Both the position numbers and the translations under genes were made by a program. From Collodictyon triciliatum (lineage: Eukaryota), in NCBI GenBank assembly GCA_043381765.1, contig JBHJMP010000899.1, positions 1 through 34,329 of the forward strand: a stretch of 34,329 bases of DNA. Reading direction: 5' to 3'. Below, in pieces: positions 3,389 to 34,329 of the stretch; the first letter of the stretch is position 1, and every line of letters starts with the position of its first letter. The notes beneath the pieces are model-generated. The model saw only the letters and a program-made list of their open reading frames with translations, was not told where the DNA came from and did no database searches.

Positions 3389-6300
3389 ATGTCGTCGCCT
3401 CTTTTCGTAGCCGTCGATGTTGGGACCGGAAGTGTTCGGGCTGCCATATTCGATCTGTGTGGAAGTCGCCTTGCTCTTCAAACCGAGGCCCTTAAGACAT
3501 GGAACGACACTCCGCTTCACTATGAGCAGTCGTCCGAGGATGTTTGGAGCAAGTGTGCTTTGGTTGTCCGAAAGGTGACTCTTCTTTCTCGGCAGAGGGC
3601 GTTCCATGATGTTTTCATTGCCCAGCCACTCATCAAAGGCTCGTGCTTCGTTTAAGGGCACATTATTCTCCTGTTTTGTTTAAACAAGAAGGTTAAAAAG
3701 AAGGTGATGCATGCTGAGATTCACCCATATAATCATCATATGATAAGTGTGTAGAATCAGTCCCAGAAGCTCGAGATCTCGTGGTCGGTGTAGGTTTTAC
3801 TGGTACATGCTCACTCGTTCTACTTGGTGATGACAATAAGCCTGTTTCTGCATCTCTAGATGGTTCCAGCGACAAAAATATTATTTTGTGGTATGTTTAA
3901 ATTAATTGTTCATTTTCGCGTTTGCTCTCTCCCATGCGCTCCCATCCCGCCCCTTTGTATGGCATAACCTCGCTACACTTTGAATCGAATAAAGGAAAAA
4001 AAATTAATTGTTCATTTTAATTCACTATCACAGAAGACATATTTGCGCAAGGCTAATTGATTATCATCATTTTCTTGTTCTTTTTCATTTTCTTCTTGTT
4101 CTTGTTGTTCTTGTTGTTCTTGTTGTTCTTGTTGTTCTTGTTGTTCTTGTTGTTCTTGTTGTTCTTCTTTTTTCTTTTTCTTCTTTTTCTTCTTGTTCTT
4201 GTTCTTGTTCTTGTTGTTCTTGTTCTTGTTGTTCTTGTTGTTCTTCTTTTTCTTCTTTTTCTTCTTCCTCTTCATCACCATCATCACCATCACCATCATT
4301 ATTGTAATGGAGTTGGATGCTAAGAATGCAATCCTAGGATATATGCCCTTGTTTCATCTGTCTCAAATCTATGATTAACAGGATGGACCACCGAGCAATT
4401 AACGAGGCCGACGAAATCAACGATTCTGGTCACGAACGACTACGCTTCCTCGGTGGCAAAATATCACCTGAGATGCAAGTGCCAAAGATACTATGGCTTA
4501 AGAGAAACATGCCCCACTCTTTTGCGTCTACGAGGCACTTTTTTGACCTCCCAGACTTTTTGTCATTCAAGGCCACTGGGTGCCATAGCCGCTCTATGTG
4601 CACAACCACATGTAAATGGACTTATCAACCAGTAGACACGAGCACACGTGAAGACAAAACACTGTTTGGTACCGAAGGCTGGAGTGACTCATTTTTTCAA
4701 ACGACAGATCTTTCAAACTTTGTTGACGATAATTACGTCCGAATCGGCTCCCAGGTTTTGCCCCTAGGGTCTAAAATGGCATTACCTCTGCATCCGACTG
4801 TTTCCGACATGTGGGGTCTTGGAAGACAACCTGTATGTGTGGCAGTTTCGTCTATAGATGCACACTCGGGAGGTATTGGCGTCCTCGGAGTTCATCCTGC
4901 AGCCACGCCCAATGAAAGGGTGGATGAGTTGCTCCTTTCTCAAAAATTGGCTCTGATATGCGGGACGTCAAACTGCCACATGGTAGCATCCAAAGAGCCC
5001 AAATTTGTGCCGTAAGTATACAAAATAAGAATTATAATATCAATAAAATAAATATTAACATCTAAATACATAAATGCTTTTGTATCTTGCTTTATTTTTT
5101 TTTTATTGTGATAAAGACGAATTTAATCAATTTATGATAACGACTATAATAATTAAAATAAAAAGACGCTATAATAGCTAAAATTTAACTTCTTCAATAT
5201 GTAATATATTTAATAGTGAATTCTTAATGAGCCATCCTTCATATACCCAATCCAAATTGTAAGATTTATTGAAACCCATTCATTTGAGGATAGAGGTGTA
5301 TGGGGACCTTACTTTGGCGCTATGATTCCAGACATGTGGCTCTCTGAGGGTGGCCAGTCTTCATCGGGTTCCCTCATTCAACACATCATAGATGTTCATT
5401 CTGCCAACACCATCTTGTCGTTCGAGGCAGCAAAGCTTGGAATTCACCCGTACCAAGTGCTTAATGACAAAATCAAGCAAATAGCTGAAAATAAGCCTGT
5501 AACCTGTCCAGCCTTTCTCACTAAGGAAATTCACGTTTGTAATATTAGCTTCTGCCCCTGAGAATCGAATTTACCCTCTCACTTCTCTAGCAACACTTAA
5601 TTTTCTCTCTGTATTATTGTATTTGCCATTCTCTCTAATCATACATTTACACAAATTTCCATAGTGTTTGCCTTACTTCCATGGAAATCGTTCGCCGATA
5701 GCTGACCCGTCTCTGACTGGAATGGTATTTTAGAATGACTATTTAACAGACCAGAAAATGGATCTGTTCCTCTTTTTTTTCCCCTCCTTCAAATTGATTA
5801 ATATAATCAAACTGGTCAATTAATAAAAACTAAACAAAAAAATGACAGTTTTGCGGTTTGACCTTAAATGAAGGTATTGATGATTTAGCAATTAAGTATT
5901 ACTGTGTGGTACAGGTTTTTTTTTTGGATTTATCAATTATTTGATTATTTACTACAACTATGATTATTATGGTTAATTTAATTATTGTCCTTATTATTAT
6001 TTTTATTTATCTTACTGATTGTCTGGCGGTTAAATAAAGTCTAACTTGTTCTAGTATACTGTTTTCATTTAATAATATCAATTTTTATATTACCTAGGCT
6101 TTGGCATATGGCACGCGCCACATAATTGAGGCCATGAATGATTCTGGGCATGATATCAAAGTAAGAATATTTCCGAAAAAAACAAAACAGGAAAAAGGTC
6201 CATCGTTTAATAACCTACACTCCAACTAAATAATGTTTTCTACATTTTTTTCGAAATCATTCGGTATTGCCATTCGGTTTTCTTAACAGGTTATCGTCGC

Positions 6301-24886: not shown

Positions 24887-27800
24887 ATGCAAGACCGCAG
24901 CCTTGCGCAAAGTTCGTTCCAGTTTTCCCAACGGGACGGGTCTCAGCGGCCCTTGTTGTTTGGTGATTTGATCTCTTTGATCCCAGAGGCCGAGGCCAGT
25001 GATAAACGAAGCCTCCTCCCAAGAGACCTCCCTTCTTACCTGAGCATTGAGTATCCAGTGACTAACCCGAACGTTTCGCCGATAAGCATTTCCTTTCGCC
25101 GCGGTGTGCAGCCCAATCGCCCGGTCTCTGTTTCCTCTTTTAGGTCCTTCTCGAGCCTTTCACAAGAGAACGAAATCCGCCCCACCATCGACACTCTGCC
25201 GGAGTTCTTTCAGCAGCGCTGCGTCGTTCAGATTCTGAACGGAAACCCTCGAGGCCTCGGCCAACAAGTGCGATATGGCCAGTTGGTTCAGTTCTTCCAT
25301 CCAACAAGTCGCTCATACCTGGCCGTCTCTGCTACACAACACGACACACTTATGATTCAGGCACACGAGACCCTGTATACCTACTTCCGCCTTTTGCCTC
25401 GCTTCAAGTTGAGAGAGGAAGGCGAACCAGTTCTTGCTGATGACGTCCTGATGATTTGCCCACACCAATCTAAATTGACTCTCGGGTATTCTGTCTCTAG
25501 CACAATGGAAAAGTCTATCCCTGGAGGTCGCAAGAGCAAACAGCTATCGGAAATGATCGAAGATGGCCTTCTCCCTTCAAATGTTATCCATGTTGGCCCC
25601 ACATCGCTCAAGTACGGCTGGAAAATCCATCGATTTGCATCTTATCGTGAAGACTCGGCTTCATTTGCCAAGGTTTTTTTTAAAAATAAATAATGTTATA
25701 TAATGGTGTAATCTATTACAGGAATAGTCTGATTCGGCTTTTATTTAAAAGGATTTGTCTACATTAGTCCATTCAAGTTTAACATACGATATACCATAGG
25801 GTGGAGATGTAATCAGAGTCATGCATGTTGAATCTGAGGGGCATGTGTGTTCCAAGGAGAGAAATGCATTCCTCTTCCAGTTAGAAAGCGACAGAACTAA
25901 TGACAGACCAGATTATGAGCTGCTGGATAATATCTCGAGTGCAAGGCGTGAATATTTTGACCGGCTCGTTGCTTCCATAAAAGGTGAAAAGAATGTCCAG
26001 CAGAAGATACGGTCGTGGAGGAGCGAAATAGATGCCGTTGCATATGTGAAGAAACAGAATAGCGACGCTGGACCGAAAAGTGTTCATTCAATGTGGCAAA
26101 TAGAGTTGGAGAACCCAGATACCGGTTCCCTGTTAACGCCATCAACTCCATTTCGGTTGAGACATTACCTCTGTAATAATTCCGCCACAATTGCTCGTCT
26201 TTTTGTTTTTGAACTATGCATTTTTTTTTGTTTGTTTGTTTGTGGATCCCGGTCTCAATCGAAACATGAAACAAATATCATGAGATAATTTGCGCACATT
26301 TTGAAGAATAGAGATCTAAAGCTCCGTTTATTTTCTCTTTTTTTTTCTTTTTACGAATCACTTGTTATTTGTGGATCACAATACAGAGGCTCATTTTACA
26401 TGATACTGTAGTGGTTCATACATTTCCAATCGTCTTCATTGTCATACTTGCTTTCTGCTTTTCTTTTTTTATCTGTCGGTCTTCACTTTTCCTTTTTTTT
26501 TAAAAAAAAAAAAGTAATCGATTTATACGAGAATCATGAAGGTCCAATGTAACTGAATTTTATCTTTCCTTCTTTTTCTCACAGCTGGTAACTACTTGAG
26601 TTACGATGTCTTGTCTGTACCCTCTGACCAAGAAGGGGAGGCTCAAAATGGGGCGATGAGTGGGCTGCATCATCATTCTCATGAGAAAACATTCGTCATA
26701 CACAACGGAATCAGATGCAGCGGTTGTGATAAGTCCCCTATTGTCGGACCAAGGTATAACTGCCCCATATGCCCTGATGTCAATTTTTGTCAGACTTGTA
26801 TAGAGGAAGAATTATATAGTCCCGCGCATCCCCTTCTGAAATTTACATTCGCTGTGAAGCAAATTCCAAAAATTCGTGTTCACATTCGTGACACAGAGAG
26901 CGGCAACATTCACAATCGTAATTGCACTGGGTGTGGCATTGCAATCGTCGGCACCTTATTTCGCTGCCTGGCATACAAATGTACTGACGTGTTCTGCGAA
27001 TCTTGTGAGCCCAAGTTTCCTCCAGCGCCAGGACATGTTTACCTCTTAGACAAATTCTCAAGACCGTCACATTCTCTACCTAATCATGAGAGCCCGCTGA
27101 ATCTTGTCCAGCCACTTTCAAATTTTCACGATAACACTCGGTGCGATGGGTGCTACCGCAAGTGCTTTGAAGGTGTTCGGTATCGTTGTGCATATTGCAT
27201 TGACTTTGACTTTTGTCAAGAATGCGAAGCCACCAAAACGCACATCGAGGGGCATACATTCGTAAAGCTCCCCTACGCGGTGGATAAGAACCTTTCACCT
27301 CTGAATTTCCCCATATCCGGTTTGCCTGTCCTATCTAAGAGGCTTCCAGGTGAACCACGCTGCAGCTGTACGGTGTCTGGATGCTCTGTTTGTGGTAAGG
27401 AAATTACTGGAACTTTCTTCAAATGTCTGACTCACAATTGTGACTTTGCTATTTGCGATACATGCGAGCTACATTATCATCCTCCAGGTGATGGGCAACA
27501 AGGTCATAATGTAACACATCTGATGCTCAAAGTCCGAGATGACATTAAAGTAGCTCCTGCTGATGACCATTTCCCAGAGGGTTCATTCAGAGCTGACTTC
27601 GAAAAAGAATCCCCGTGGAATGAAGGCGACTTTACCATCCGGATGACTGAGAAGGCATCTCCTGACACCCTTTTCACATTCGTATCAGAAACGGACTGTG
27701 ATGGGCTTCTCCCATTGAATGGAAATATTCGTCTTCGTCACCACATGTCAGATAAATGGGTCACAATTCAAGACCTCGTCGGTAAAGTTCCAGCCGACCG

Positions 27801-30800
27801 AGCGGATCGCACAAAGGGTAAAGGTGACCGTAAAAGGAGCAAATACAGGATGGCATACTTGAACGTGAACCCAGAGTACAGAGAACAAGATTTGTTCACA
27901 TTCGAACTGGCAGCCCCTGATGAATTACATACGACAAACTTGGTATTGAGTCAGCTGCATCTTTTTGAAAAGTTTATATTCAAGGATGTTCCCAACCTGG
28001 AAAAGGTTTTAGCTATCGCTCCTGAGAAAATACAAACGTGGAAGAAGCAAGAAATGGACCTCGTTTTCCTTCCTTCTGAACTCATATTTAAGTATTTGAT
28101 CAACATGTGTACAGGTAACTAGGCTGACAAAACATATATTTGAATAATTATTGTATTTACTGGTATTTTATTCGTAAATTACTCAACTGTTCAGAGACAT
28201 AGTGATTTATATTATATTCATTTATATTTCTCATACAATGGCTAGCGAACCAAAGCCAACATCTCTACCATCCTGCACAAAATTGAAAGGAAGAATAAAA
28301 AAAAAAATTATATCTCTCATATTCTCCGGTGTAGATGACAAGGAAGAGGATTCTCTAAAACGAGAGGGAACTCCTTTGAAATGCCATCAGAAGTTGCTAC
28401 ATCACTGCTGGATTGTCGATGCATTGATGTATGTTTACCAAAAGGTAGAGCCCATGAAACCTAAAATCAAGGATAATCCCTATCTGAAGAAAAAAGTCCA
28501 TGAAAGTATGATTTATCTTTCTCGTTTGCTAAAGCAACTTTGCAAAGGGAATCCATCCATATCTACTTATGCAGGATTTTGGATTGGAGATATATTTTCA
28601 TACTTAGGAGATAGCAAAGGCGATGATGCTTACGGATTTGCAAAAGTTTTGAAAGAAATGTGCCTTGAAAACTCAAAATTGGCGCAATATATTGACACTT
28701 TTGAAGTATCTTCTACCTTAAAACTCCTCCACGAAAAACCATCTCACCTGTATTTGGATTTCCTGTCTAATATATGCATTGTGAACAGAAGAGTGAATGA
28801 AAAAAACCAGAGAATTGTTCGGGATGTCATGTTATCCCCTGATTCTGAATTCTCGCAATTTAGCTATTTCTTTGATTTAAAGATAATTAATGGAGTTCCG
28901 CATATATTTCCTTGTCCGGGCACCCAAATATCCTGGAATCAAACAAATTTGGTAGAGTGGGGTAGAGACCCATCCAACATCGAAAACATCCAATATTTCA
29001 CTTCGAGCCTGAGACTTCTCTCGTCAATTTGTCAGGTAGAAACCACTTTTACGATTTTTTTTTAAAAAAAAAAAGTAGAGAAAAATCAGTTAACCTTAGA
29101 CTCTACAAGTTGCAACGTCTAAAATTAAGGCGTCATTTAATTTTTGTTCTTTTATTTCTAATAGGGAGAAAACAAGGCATCCCAGAAACTCGTTCGTAAA
29201 ATTCTTAATTTGGAAACTCTTTTATGCTGTTTGGAGACAGTCGTTGACTTAGGGCTGGGGACATATCCAATTAGTATTACATACGCTTTACTTGACTGCG
29301 TTTTGCATATCCATTATATTTCACAAAACAGAAGAACACTTCCTGTAATTCGTTACATACGCCAGTATGGAAAGCAGACAATTAAGAGCAACTTACTAAA
29401 CTATTCGACAATAAAGCGAAAGAAGGATGCTGTTCAACTATTAGACTCATCCACGCATAGAATGCGCACAATTGTTGAGAAAATTCTTCGTCAGTTTCCC
29501 TCAAGATATGATAGCGCTTGCTTTGAAACAAAAGGAACACTTCCGTGCATTCTTATTGTTTCGTTAAAAATGATTATTCAGATGATTGATTATGGTGAAA
29601 TATGCGATTCTGGTAATTTGTCTTCTGAAAGAAACATCAAACTACAAGAATACCTATATGATATTTTCCAAAGTACTACGTGGGCTCGCTACATAGAGGA
29701 AGGAAAAAAACATAAGCAGAGCCCTCATCACAAGATTATTTACATGTTTGACGGTTATAATGGAATTCCCATGGTCAGTTTTCATACCTCCAACATAATA
29801 ACATACCCTATTAATTTCTTTAAAAAAAACTCGAATAATTTTACATTTAAGAATTAATTCAATCCAATTAACCTTTTTTTTTCTTTAAAAATATTCTTTT
29901 ATATTTTTATCTCTATACTGGCCGTCTACCCTTAAAATAGTGTGGAGCAAAGATGCATATTTTCCAGCTTCTTAACAAGCTCGTAGATGTTCATATGGAC
30001 TGGCAAATATCAAGGGTGATTGAAAGCAACGGAGATATGAATTTCATATGGGACAATCCATTTCCGTACTATAAATTTGACAAGTTTTTGGGCTTTATGA
30101 TGGAGCTTAGCTACTCGCCATTTCCATTACTCCGAAACGAACTCGTTCGGACGATGAATCGATTAGACCAACATCCCAAAGAACTACTCGATCACTTGAA
30201 GCAAGTGCAGATTATACCACCCGAAGAAGAAAATGCATTTATCGAGCTCAACAATTTAGTTGCTCAGCTCAAGGAAATTTTAGAAAAGAAAGACTGGGTT
30301 AGCCATGAAGATGAACTTACTTCACTACAGAACAGAATGACTGAAGTAGAAAAGCATTTGATAACATCCCAAACGTGCCTATGCTACAAACAGTACATGG
30401 TATCTCATCTGAGAATTCATGATGAGGTCATTTACCCCGTTCTCAAAACTGTCTTGAAGCTTATTGAAGACATTGATGACGATGCCACTAGCGATATGCG
30501 CTCATTGCTGTTTGAATCTAACATGGGCTCAGACGGAGACTTATCAGACTTTAGTGATATTGGTGCCGAGGTTTATGAGAGTGAAGAAGACTTCGAAGAC
30601 GAGGAAAACGATGTTGATGAAAACGAACTTGACCATCAGGAAGGCAGACTGCAAAGCCAATCCAGCATTCAAGACCCTGTTGTACTAGTTTTTGAAAAGC
30701 CTCAGCTTCTATCACACGTCAGCTCGCTATTTATCTCAGATGACCTTATTCCAGAATCCGCACTATCACCAGCCTCTATTAACGACCACGGCTCTGGAGT

Positions 30801-33800
30801 GTTTAATGACCCTTTGGCGGAATCCACAGGTGGTTTTATAATATTGAACGAAGATAAAAGTGAGTCAACCTCTCCCAACGTATTGCAAATCGAGACACCT
30901 GAAGTCGGAGATGATACTGCTTTTCAGAGCTTTAATCGGAGAATATCTCTTAAAAAAGACAACCAATCGAATCAAAACGAACAAAAACTGCGCGAGTCAC
31001 TTCTTGATAATTCATCAGATCTTTTTCAAGATGAAGTCTCAGAACTTGAGCTAAATTATTCAAATACCTTAATCAGAAAAGATTCTATGTCATTACCACA
31101 TGTTCGCTTGGCAGAAAATTCAAGAAAGAGTTTTCGTTTTAATGATTCTATCAATATTCAGAAGAGAAACAGCACATCACCAGGAGTATCATACAGAAGA
31201 AGCGAGTCTAGCTACACTAGTTCATCCATTAATGACAGCAAGAGAAGAATGTTACAAAGCATTTATGAAACATGCTTTAGAATACTTGCTCTTCAAGTGC
31301 AGAAAAATGAAAAAATCTCTCGTGTCATATTCAACCAGTATGACGTCTATGAAAGCTTCATTCGTCCTTATTCTGCTGGAGTCGTAGATTTTCTTGAAAG
31401 CTTATTGGCTGAATATTCTATGGTGCGAAATATGGATTCAAAGATCCTCTCGCATATAACAATACTAATGATAAAATCAATTACGGATGATATAAAAAAG
31501 CCACCAAGTGAACAAACCTCTGTTGGACTGCGTTATATCAAATTCCTGATGCGTGTTGCCATAGTCGACATGAAACCGTGCGATGAAAACCAAACGGTCA
31601 TTACCTCTATCGTATTCAGTTCCAATATAGAGAGCCAATTCTTCCTTCAAAATTTACTCGAGCTTCAAGTTTATGACTATAATGCAGATGAGATAACCGC
31701 GCCTGACCAAGAGAAGCTTTTCATAAGCCGCCTGGAAAATGTTGATGAGAAGATTGGATTATATCACTCTCATCTTGTCGAACTCTTATCTTCCTGTTGT
31801 TTTGGTGTTTGTGCTTCCAGTAAGAATGCTTGTATATCTAGAATACCTAAAGAAACCATAGTAAAAATTGTTTCCAACCAATCCATCTACATAAACATCA
31901 GGAAAGTATATCTGAAATTTCTCTGTAGCTTGCTGTTTGCATATGAAGCTGTTCTTGATTTTGGAGAGGATGGCGAAAGTGATGACACCAGCGATCAAAA
32001 TTTAGCCAGTGAACCCAGCTCATTCAATAACACGCTGAATGGGCAAGGGGAGTCAACCAAGATTATAGAATTTCTCAAGGCTAATCAGAGTGACTTTATG
32101 CAAATGATTCACTCTTTTAATCATTTCTTGACACAAAAATCCGACTTTGAAAACCCAACAAATGTTTCCAATGCACAAACTTCGGTATTCATATTTCACT
32201 CGATTCCATTCGCTATGAGACCTATCCACACTACGATAGATGATGCCTGGATGAGTCAATTTCCCAGAAACCCTGTATCATCGTGGTCTGAAGAAGACGT
32301 TCGTTTTTTCATCGAGGTGGCTATATTCATACGTGTTTTGGGATTCTATTTGGATGATTCTGGTCTATCAGGAATGCGACAAGCGGCAATAGAGACTAGT
32401 AAACTCCTTACTGTGACATTTTTATCTGCACCAGATGCTGAATCCTTAAGGGTTGTTCCTTTCTTTTTAAATAAGATTTTTCAGACCCTTTGGAGGGGAA
32501 AAAGGCCCGAAATTTGGCAAGATTTTGCAGATAGGCAAACTGGATTTCTGGGAAAGATTTCATTGCTTCTTAATTCAGGAAATCATAATTCTATAGAAAT
32601 GACTCCTCGAAAAACTTCCACTACTTCAACAACCGATACTATCCCTAAAGAGCTAATTGAATGGGATTCCAAAATTAAACAGGTGCAATCTTTTATCTTT
32701 GAGAGAATACTCTCTATGAATTCTGAGTCAACAGGACTATTTAATATTCTTTCAGGCCAAAATAACGTCCCAAAAAAAAGAGGCATCACTTGTGAAGATA
32801 GACTCCTTCTTGAAGAAGAAACCCCAGGCTATAATGAAGTCGAAAATCAGATCGAATTTAAAAGTATTTACTTTGGAGATGTAACCATGGAGCTGAAATC
32901 ACGCTTGTTTGCTATCATATCTAGCGTGAAAGATTTGAATGAGCCTGGTATTCTAGAATCGAACCAAGATTTCGCTTTTATCTTCAACATATGCCAGCAT
33001 CTCCAAACGACACGAGATATTGGTATCACCTGGAGTCCCTGGCTATTCCAAGTATTAACATATGTCCTTTACTGCTGCCCAACGGACGTGGAATCTGACT
33101 CTCTTATGGGGGAAAAGACTAAAAGTCCACATCAGCTTGACGGATTCTGCTTGACAGGACTTTCGACCTTAACGCAGATGCAACTATTGTATGTCAAACT
33201 TCAAATACCTGAAACGATCCTCAGTCGCTTGAAGTTTTGTCAGGGAGGATGTCCTCAGCGCTCATCAATATTCAGACTCGGCATTTATCTTCTCAAAGGA
33301 GGAAATAAAATGGTTCAGAGTAGTATCTCAGATAACATCAAACAAGACCCAAAGAATGCAGTCATAAGAAAAATTCGCAGTGGCTTTTTAGAGGCCATAG
33401 AACATCTTGGGGGTTATAGGGCAATACAAAACAAGAACGGAAAAGGAGCGGTAACTACAAGAACCCTTGTGGGAACTAGAAGAGATGAAAAACAACAAGA
33501 GATTGTCCAATTCATTACAATATCCCTACGCTTTATTCAACTTCTATGTGAAGGCCACAATCATGACATGCAAAACCTCCTACGCAACCAGCCAAAGAAA
33601 TCTGTTGACCTTATATCTGAAGTGGTTGGGTTCATATTGTTCTTTCAAGAAGACATGTGGGGTAAATTACCCAGAGGCGCGCAGGGATTAGATATTTACA
33701 CATATACTACCTTTGAAATGCTCTCCACTATTATTGATATGGAATTACTAACCCAAGGATATAGAACGATGACAGAGTTTATGCAAGGGCCTTGCCTAGA

Positions 33801-34329
33801 TAACCAGAAGGCCATATTGGATGCCAAGGCATGTGATTTTCTCGAGAAATTCCTCCGATATTTCGACCTAAGTAAAACATTCGGTTGTGGGCAAATATTG
33901 ACTCCTGTCGAATTTTCATCTAAACTGCATCTCCCCCTTTTAATGGATGAGTGGAACCTTCAATTAAATCAGCTTCAAATGAGCGTGTTGGAATTTTTGG
34001 TTGGATTGATGGAAGGTAATCACGAAAACGGAACACGCATTATTGATGAGATATGTCATATCGTCTTGATTGATAACATGACCTTTCATTTTGAACGTCA
34101 TCACGCTTTTGATAAGGAACAACACGACGTTTTCAACAAACCAAAGCTCAGTTTTACAAAGACTCAGTTAGAATCCCTCAGAATTCCTTCTATTAGGGAA
34201 AGAATGTCCCCATCGGTTCTAGTACACGTAAAGCATATTGACCTCAGTAAGCTCGAAAGTGTCGTCGAGGTCGATTTCCGATATCGCAAATTTGTATACG
34301 GTTTGTGGTCTCGAGTCCATATCATGATT
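24887..34329 (+). CDS. ITPR: Inositol 1,4,5-trisphosphate receptor-family Ca2+-release channel (ITPR/iplA-like), 3'-partial; exons 24887-25672, 25800-26172, 26585-28114, 28335-29035, 29165-29773, 29941->34329 (~2,796 aa in the window)
   Basis: Suppressor/MIR motifs VRYGQLVQFFHPTSRSYL, YFRLLPRFKLREEGEPV, WKIHRF..KGGDVIRVMHVESE, SMWQIE..FRLRHYLSGNYL, NIRLRHHMSDKWV. RIH motifs HQKLL and YLDFLSNICIVNRRVNEKNQRIV. RIH-associated motifs ILRFIQLLCEGHNHDMQNLLRNQ and TMTEFMQGPCLDNQKAI. The final exon appears open to the window edge (hence absent from the ORF track) and the transmembrane region is not reached. Confidence 0.92.
26701..27535 (+). other. Four tandem ZZ-type zinc fingers encoded within IP3R exon 3
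   Basis: HNGIRCSGC..IVGPRYNCPICPDVNFCQTC..HPL; HNRNCTGC..IVGTLFRCLAYKCTDVFCESC..GHV; HDNTRCDGC..EGVRYRCAYCIDFDFCQEC..HIEGHTF; CSVC..ITGTFFKCLTHNCDFAICDTC..HNVTHLM. Confidence 0.92.

What the first reader, a model, noticed from the sequence alone, without database searches (positions are those of the whole stretch)
26030..28560. Canonical IP3-coordinating residues appear lost, so the channel is probably not IP3-gated
By-eye alignment to mammalian IP3R1: VFLRTTGR (R265/T267/R269) aligns to AYVKKQNS; NRERQKLMRE (R504/K508/R511) aligns to LKCHQKLLHH, keeping K508 but no arginines; QDYRKN (Y567/R568/K569) aligns to KGNPSI. A ~55-aa helical-looking insertion (about 25860-26035) also sits just before the first motif. 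Inference: the IP3 pocket is degenerate, which makes the ZZ array a candidate replacement ligand sensor.
Basis: partly seen in the sequence, partly recalled or inferred. Interest (0 to 1): 0.7.

Follow-up and report, generated by a model that had tools for sequence, protein, structure and literature searches.

The report
Protist calcium channel, degenerate IP3 pocket
This is a protist relative of the IP3 and ryanodine receptor calcium channels in which most IP3-gripping residues are replaced, which is common outside animals and does not prove it ignores IP3; its unusual part is four inserted zinc fingers, one shaped like a reader of protein N-termini.

Summary
The gene is a spliced, intact IP3R/RyR-family channel. 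Its closest relative is a 3402-aa Diphylleia rotans protein with the same 60-aa insertion and four ZZ fingers; RNA contigs confirm four introns. The ARM1 half of the pocket is degenerate in 5 of 5 alignments: R504>K, R506>H, K508 kept, R511>H, Y567>N, R568>P, K569>S. The beta-trefoil half is less clear: its register is unresolved, R241 is kept, two lysines remain, and Diphylleia keeps R269. Mammalian-type high-affinity binding is unlikely. 'Not IP3-gated' is only partly supported: reviews report IP3-stimulated release by trypanosome channels, a group reported to lack many of these residues, and the genome has PI-PLC genes. 0 of 6 unnamed homologs and 0 of 3 RyRs have Y567, and 4 of 4 long homologs scanned lack ZZ, so degeneracy does not depend on ZZ gain. 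The activating Ca2+ site is intact. Best reading: a Ca2+-activated release channel with an accessory ZZ module; ZZ3 keeps the p62-type N-terminus pocket. The scan had noted the ZZ insertion at this locus only.

The parts
24887..25672 (+). Exon 1: suppressor-like beta-trefoil (start ATG inferred)
   Evidence: PF08709 E 1e-7; 61% identical to Diphylleia in the core; intron 1 GT-AG by ortholog comparison only, no RNA joint seen
25800..26172 (+). Exon 2: first part of beta-trefoil 2 (IBC-beta); R241 kept at 25815-25817, K249>G at 25839-25841
   Evidence: RNA joint 26172>26585
25857..26036 (+). 60-aa lineage-specific segment replacing an 8-residue hairpin turn; probably helical
   Evidence: 32 of 60 identical in Diphylleia; low-confidence helices in two AlphaFold runs
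26037..26096 (+). Site 1: strand and loop equivalent to the R265-R269 loop; register unresolved; two Lys here, four basic residues in Diphylleia
   Evidence: 15 of 20 identical in Diphylleia; registers
26585..28114 (+). Exon 3: ZZ array, second part of beta-trefoil 2, first ARM1 helices
   Evidence: PF00569 E 5e-19; RNA joints on both sides
26695..26844 (+). ZZ1; acidic N-terminus pocket incomplete (S/D/N here, S/S/D in Diphylleia)
26911..27045 (+). ZZ2 (ZZ-like; lacks the D129 equivalent)
   Evidence: cysteine pattern, 27 of 45 identical in Diphylleia
27124..27270 (+). ZZ3; keeps equivalents of p62 D129, R139, D147, D149 in both species
   Evidence: alignment to p62, HERC2, KCMF1 ZZ; residue roles PMC6197226 passages
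27361..27534 (+). ZZ4 (ZZ-like; lacks the D129 equivalent)
   Evidence: cysteine pattern, 23 of 58 identical in Diphylleia
28335..29035 (+). Exon 4: ARM1 / first RIH domain
   Evidence: PF01365 E 4e-15; RNA joints
28373..28405 (+). Site 2 helix: R504>K, R506>H, K508=K, R511>H
   Evidence: 5 of 5 alignments
28541..28561 (+). Site 3 loop: Y567>N, R568>P, K569>S
   Evidence: 5 of 5 alignments
29165..29773 (+). Exon 5: helical domain
   Evidence: RNA joints
29941..34329 (+). Exon 6, runs off the contig: second RIH and RIH-associated domain; the two glutamates of the activating Ca2+ site lie at about 33550 and 33775
   Evidence: PF01365, PF08454; alignment; pore domain read from G000:C190 and G000:C12704

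Best explanation
A single-locus, expressed intracellular cation-release channel of the IP3R/RyR family in a relative of Diphylleia. It keeps the fold of the IP3-binding core but not the mammalian phosphate cage, so IP3 is probably not its high-affinity trigger. Most likely it opens like a ryanodine receptor: cytosolic Ca2+ binds the conserved ARM3/juxtamembrane site, with nucleotide at the C2H2 zinc-finger region as co-regulator. The four ZZ fingers sit in a surface loop of beta-trefoil 2 and act as an accessory docking or tuning module, ZZ3 probably holding the free N-terminus of a partner protein; they do not stand in for the IP3 pocket. Shown: gene structure, splicing, residue states at sites 2 and 3, fold, Ca2+-site residues, ZZ3 pocket residues. 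Inferred: everything about gating, ion selectivity and the ZZ partner.
For: Sites 2 and 3 degenerate in both species; single changes at R241, T267, R269 abolish mammalian activity and Y567C, R568G are disease variants (passages). K/R at 2 of 6 basic ARM1 positions, against 3, 3 and 4 of 6 in three fish RyRs (that RyRs are not IP3-gated is established knowledge). Both Ca2+-site glutamates, the threonine and the C2H2 finger are kept (site described in PMC9522344 passages; mapping of motifs to residue numbers recalled). Model of the ortholog matches IP3R3 at Z 26.6, 373 residues, 3.4 A, and RyR N-termini at Z up to 18.9. In a quick tree the two collodictyonid rows fall outside both animal IP3Rs and RyRs, unresolved. 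Degenerate homologs without ZZ exist.
Against: Trypanosome channels are reported IP3-responsive although parasite homologues lack many basic residues. The site-1 loop is basic and 75% conserved between the two species, and Diphylleia keeps R269. At least three PI-PLC X-box loci exist and no other IP3R-type locus was found. Capsaspora IP3R keeps the Ca2+ residues yet is not regulated as in mammals (passage), so residue conservation does not prove Ca2+ gating. The filter lacks GGxGD, so Ca2+ selectivity is itself untested. The structure model used IP3R rows in its alignment and is unreliable at site 1 (pLDDT under 50).
Confidence: 0.52

Rival explanations
1. It is still an inositol-phosphate-gated channel: IP3 (at micromolar levels) or another inositol polyphosphate binds a remodelled cleft made of R241, the basic site-1 loop, K504 and K508, possibly helped by the 60-aa insertion.
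For: R241, K508 and basic 504 kept in both species; loop KKQNS / KRRNR; trypanosome precedent; PI-PLC genes with both catalytic His motifs seen in 2 loci; only one such channel locus found.
Against: 3 of 4 phosphate-5 ligands changed and Pro at 568 in both species; the loop arginines of Diphylleia are Gln/Ser here, so they are not invariant; PLC also serves organisms without IP3 receptors (established knowledge).
Confidence: 0.3
2. The ZZ array is the primary sensor: a peptide or protein with a free N-terminus (an N-degron or protease product) binds ZZ3 and opens the channel through beta-trefoil 2.
For: ZZ3 keeps D129/R139/D147/D149 equivalents in both species; the array is 54% identical between species, above the 35% of the trefoil half that follows it; it is spliced into the mRNA and inserted in the ligand-binding domain.
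Against: Only 1 of 4 fingers has the full pocket; degenerate pockets occur without ZZ; the array follows the second trefoil repeat, a variable loop that is also expanded by about 130 residues in P0064, not the pocket loops; no coupling path is shown (linkers pLDDT under 50).
Confidence: 0.12
3. The altered pore makes it a poorly Ca2+-selective or mainly scaffolding channel, and the N-terminal cleft has no ligand at all.
For: Filter reads GLRGPP / GMRGAP instead of RSGGGVGD, and the F2586 gate position is Ser.
Against: Pore region about 70% identical between species; many Paramecium channels keep only part of the filter motif (PMC3213138 passage); Ca2+ site intact.
Confidence: 0.06

Closest known systems
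Diphylleia rotans EukProt protein P0050 (3402 aa, unannotated transcript)
   Same: Ortholog: same domain order, insertion, four ZZ fingers, degenerate sites 2 and 3, non-canonical filter; 59% identical in the C-terminal region
   Different: Keeps Arg at 269 and a more basic site-1 loop; Tyr at 511, Ser-Pro-Thr at 567-569
Mammalian and insect IP3 receptors (ITPR1-3)
   Same: Size class, suppressor + MIR + two RIH + RIH-associated + pore order, IBC fold (Z 26.6), Ca2+ site, C2H2 finger
   Different: 1 of 9 pocket residues identical; 26 of 29 animal-type IP3Rs in hand keep all three motifs; no ZZ, no 60-aa insertion; GGGxGD filter
Ryanodine receptors
   Same: No IP3 cage, Asn at the 567 position (GNR against GNP), shared Ca2+ site
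   Different: About 4900 aa with SPRY and RyR repeats, which P0050 lacks; canonical filter
Trypanosome IP3Rs and Paramecium CRCs
   Same: Non-animal family members with partly or wholly degenerate IP3-binding regions and varied filters
   Different: Some are reported IP3-responsive; I did not align them; no ZZ array mentioned in the passages read
p62/SQSTM1, HERC2 and KCMF1 ZZ domains
   Same: ZZ3 aligns at E 3e-10 to 5e-9 and keeps the acidic residues that bind an N-terminal amine
   Different: Here inside an ion channel as one of four fingers; N132 position is Tyr/Lys; ligand unknown

Membership tests
IP3R/RyR superfamily | Suppressor, MIR, RIH, RIH-associated and pore domains in order | tested here: met
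   Pfam on exons and on P0050; pore on C190/C12704
IP3R/RyR superfamily | Beta-trefoil plus armadillo fold of the N-terminal core | tested here: met
   Z 26.6, 373 aligned, 3.4 A to IP3R3; model built with IP3R rows in an 8-row alignment, mean pLDDT 54
IP3R/RyR superfamily | Activating Ca2+ site (E, E, T) and C2H2 finger | tested here: met
   site from PMC9522344; number mapping recalled
IP3R/RyR superfamily | GGGxGD selectivity filter | tested here: not met
   GLRGPP / GMRGAP; the motif is also only partly kept in many Paramecium members
Canonical IP3 receptor | ARM1 phosphate ligands K508, R511, Y567, R568, K569 | tested here: not met
   1 of 5 identical in 5 of 5 alignments
Canonical IP3 receptor | Beta-trefoil ligands R265, T267, R269 | tested here: inconclusive
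   Register differs between methods; none identical in the window in either main register; Lys at 265 in one; Diphylleia keeps R269
Canonical IP3 receptor | IP3 binding and IP3-evoked Ca2+ release | not testable with these tools
   needs binding and release assays
Ryanodine receptor (animal type) | About 5000 aa with SPRY and RyR repeats | tested here: not met
   3402 aa, no PF00622 or PF02026 in P0050
Animal IP3R or RyR clade | Branches within either clade | tested here: inconclusive
   Quick tree, 16 rows, long branches: outside both, deep order unresolved
N-terminus-reading ZZ domain (p62 type) | D129, D147, D149 acidic pocket with R139 | tested here: met
   ZZ3 only, in both species; 3 of 4 fingers incomplete
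N-terminus-reading ZZ domain (p62 type) | Binding of an N-terminal peptide | not testable with these tools
   no partner known

The most novel reading that the evidence does not exclude
A Ca2+-release channel gated by protein N-termini: the IP3 cage is absent and ZZ3, an N-degron-type reader built into the ligand-binding trefoil, couples proteolysis or N-terminal arginylation directly to Ca2+ release in a lineage close to the base of Amorphea (placement recalled).
Probability: 0.12. Interest if true: 0.85.

Novelty: new variant of a known kind. Interest (0 to 1): 0.33.

Why it matters
A degenerate IP3 pocket in a protist IP3R/RyR homolog is already known and by itself ordinary. Two things give this case value. 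First, collodictyonids branch near the base of animals, fungi and amoebae (recalled), so their single channel is a direct test of whether the mammalian IP3 cage was lost here or was never completed; the shared Asn at 567 in RyRs and other homologs hints at the latter. Second, the conserved ZZ3 pocket gives a cheap, specific assay for a ligand class (free protein N-termini) never tied to this channel family in the searches made.

Tried and rejected
Direct searches of single exons against solved structures were too weak to place residues. A homolog search with exon 4 among longer proteins gave 0 of 1078 candidates. A search with the ortholog's N-terminal region gave 4 of 3037 candidates: its own cluster and three unrelated ZZ proteins, so no other ZZ-bearing IP3R was seen, in a word-based search of limited reach. 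The Atlas gave no usable hit for exon 3 and only generic RIH clusters for exon 4. A first alignment with full-length IP3Rs paired trefoil 2 with the suppressor trefoil and was discarded. AlphaFold could not fix the site-1 register or the fold of the insertion (the second model, mean pLDDT 43, was not searched). The idea that YELLD/YVLLD is the site-1 strand (it gave Asp at 265 in 3 of 5 runs) was judged less likely because both models make the following stretch helical, but it is not excluded. Pseudogene or assembly artefact was rejected: no stops, GT-AG introns, RNA joints, ortholog. The first DNA search for a second copy was swamped by a repeat (40 of 1279 candidates scored); narrower searches found the pocket exons once only. 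C9918 and C190 (89% and 95% identical) start downstream of the pocket and look like a divergent second haplotype or recent copy. P0048 aligned with gaps and P0044 and P0019 gave no first RIH match, so they were left out of the 6-homolog count. The primary papers on trypanosome IP3Rs were not seen; one look-up failed. The careful tree did not finish. No complex prediction was run, as no partner is known.
Full report
Gene and origin. The finding lies in a + strand gene with exons 24887-25672, 25800-26172, 26585-28114, 28335-29035, 29165-29773 and 29941 to the contig end. All 5 introns are GT-AG and the joined frame has 2796 codons and no stop. Pfam finds suppressor, ZZ, two RIH and RIH-associated domains on the exons. 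The closest protein found is from Diphylleia rotans (59% identity over the C-terminal 660 residues). Its full-length cluster member P0050 (3402 aa, transcript-derived) reads across every junction and carries the ZZ array. Contigs from 4 of the 10 listed runs were laid: joints confirm introns 2, 3, 4 and 5, each in one or two contigs; intron 1 was not bridged. Two of these runs are only guessed to be RNA. The pore and C-terminus are read from G000:C190 and G000:C12704. The window is thus from a relative of Diphylleia (inference).

Observation. Rat IP3R1 numbers were carried to Drosophila IP3R by a PDB alignment and on to the window by MAFFT under five settings, with the ZZ array removed for the purpose. 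The ARM1 sites were identical in 5 of 5 runs: R504>K, R506>H, K508=K, R511>H, Y567>N, R568>P, K569>S (Diphylleia K, N, K, Y, S, P, T). R241 is kept and K249 is Gly in both. Of the residues holding phosphate 5 (K508, R511, Y567, K569; PMC9663519, passages) 1 of 4 remains. In both registers Diphylleia has Arg at 269. So 'no arginine' is right for the window, but the loop is not devoid of basic residues. Of nine pocket residues named in bioRxiv 10.64898/2026.05.22.727127 (passages) 1 is identical. Of the ten basic residues (number from PMC3194816, passages; their identities recalled) 2 are identical and 3 to 4 are K/R. The insertion spans 60 residues, 32 identical in Diphylleia; AlphaFold calls it helical at low confidence.

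Fold. An 830-residue model of the ortholog (8-row alignment, mean pLDDT 53.8) matches IP3R3 best (Foldseek E 8e-13; Z 26.6, 373 aligned, 3.4 A), then IP3R1 cores (Z 19-21) and RyR N-termini (Z up to 18.9). The scaffold is kept. The model is unreliable at site 1 and the tool gives no residue pairs, so it does not settle the register.

Is degeneracy special, and is it tied to ZZ? An exhaustive search with exon 4 returned 7 proteins: the ortholog and six mostly unnamed homologs, one clustering with the cryptophyte Teleaulax. At 567, 0 of these 6 and 0 of 3 fish RyRs have Tyr (Asn in 5 of 6 and 3 of 3). K/R at the six basic ARM1 positions: window 2, Diphylleia 2, the six homologs 0, 3, 4, 4, 4, 3, the RyRs 3, 4, 3; 26 of 29 animal-type IP3Rs in hand keep all three motifs. 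The window is therefore at the degenerate end, below RyR level, but degeneracy is usual in these homologs, as PMC3194816 says of parasite channels. None of 4 long homologs scanned (P0060, P0075, P0090, P0064, from three clusters) has a ZZ hit; three fragments are uninformative. Other lineages put other modules into trefoil 2: TIR and EF-hands in the Teleaulax protein, in a later loop, and about 130 residues in P0064 in the same loop as the ZZ array. This undercuts a loss-and-replacement story and suggests the full cage may be an animal-side refinement; the quick tree places the two collodictyonid rows outside both animal groups but cannot give polarity.

Does degeneracy mean no IP3 gating? Against: a review states that T. 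brucei and T. cruzi IP3Rs release Ca2+ on IP3 in IP3R-null cells (PMC6027440, passage; PMC7040492 and PMC9799330 passages agree); I saw neither the primary papers nor those sequences. The genome has 8 PI-PLC X-box matches on 4 contigs, at least three loci, and only one IP3R-type locus was found by three Pfam models and protein or DNA searches; the assembly is fragmented, so this is a lower bound. Sites 1 and 3 are each 15 of 20 identical between the species, which shows constraint but not on the canonical side chains.

Other gating inputs. The two glutamates, the threonine and the C2H2 finger of the activating Ca2+ site shared by IP3R and RyR are kept (PMC9522344 passages, which also note that Capsaspora IP3R keeps them without mammalian-type Ca2+ regulation). 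The filter reads GLRGPP (Diphylleia GMRGAP) against RSGGGVGD, and the F2586 position is Ser; Paramecium channels also vary here (PMC3213138 passages).

ZZ array. Four fingers (26695-27534) are 54% identical between the species, against 35% for the trefoil half after them. ZZ3 aligns to HERC2, KCMF1 and p62 ZZ domains and keeps equivalents of D129, R139, D147 and D149, which in p62 bind an N-terminal arginine (PMC6197226 passages), in both species. ZZ1, ZZ2 and ZZ4 lack the D129 equivalent. ZZ3 thus probably binds a free N-terminus; whether that gates the channel is unknown. Two literature searches (15 and 11 listings read as titles and abstract starts) showed no ZZ-bearing IP3R; the library lacks most subscription papers.

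Verdict. The channel is not a canonical IP3 receptor by residue test, but works like an IP3R/RyR-family release channel. Odds: Ca2+-activated with accessory ZZ 0.52; low-affinity inositol-phosphate gating 0.30; ZZ3 peptide gating 0.12; non-selective or scaffold 0.06. The degenerate pocket is known for protists; the conserved architecture is a new variant. Interest 0.33. PMC8301844 and PMC6274648 were read as passages; the first added nothing, the second confirms the three pocket segments. No supplements were read.

Noticed in passing
window 28236-28308 (intron 3): A dispersed repeat of about 70 nt ending in an A-run, with at least 39 further copies on other contigs (40 of 1279 candidates scored) and very deep contig cover in X1 and X2; flanks unrelated; no Rfam family. 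Looks like the 3' end of a retroposon.
   Followed up: partly
window 25375-25500: One contig of run X1 (depth 5) skips an in-frame GT..AG stretch of 126 nt inside exon 1, removing 42 conserved residues of the suppressor domain; possible alternative splice form.
   Followed up: no
L003 about 3590-3620 (G000:C190): Pore filter lacks GGxGD (GLRGPP; Diphylleia GMRGAP) and the F2586 gate position is Ser.
   Followed up: partly
P0090 (Teleaulax cluster), residues about 470-880: IP3R-like protein with a TIR domain and EF-hands inserted within beta-trefoil 2; related P0060/P0075 carry EF-hands and a C2 domain. Trefoil 2 seems a recurring site for added modules.
   Followed up: partly
G000:C9918 and G000:C190 against window 28671-34329: A second copy of the 3' part of the gene, 89% and 95% identical, while the 5' exons are single-copy; divergent haplotype or recent duplicate.
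   Followed up: partly
window 4338-5561 and 1322-1804: Exons that by eye resemble an FGGY-family carbohydrate kinase and a kelch-repeat protein (labels recalled, not scanned).
   Followed up: no
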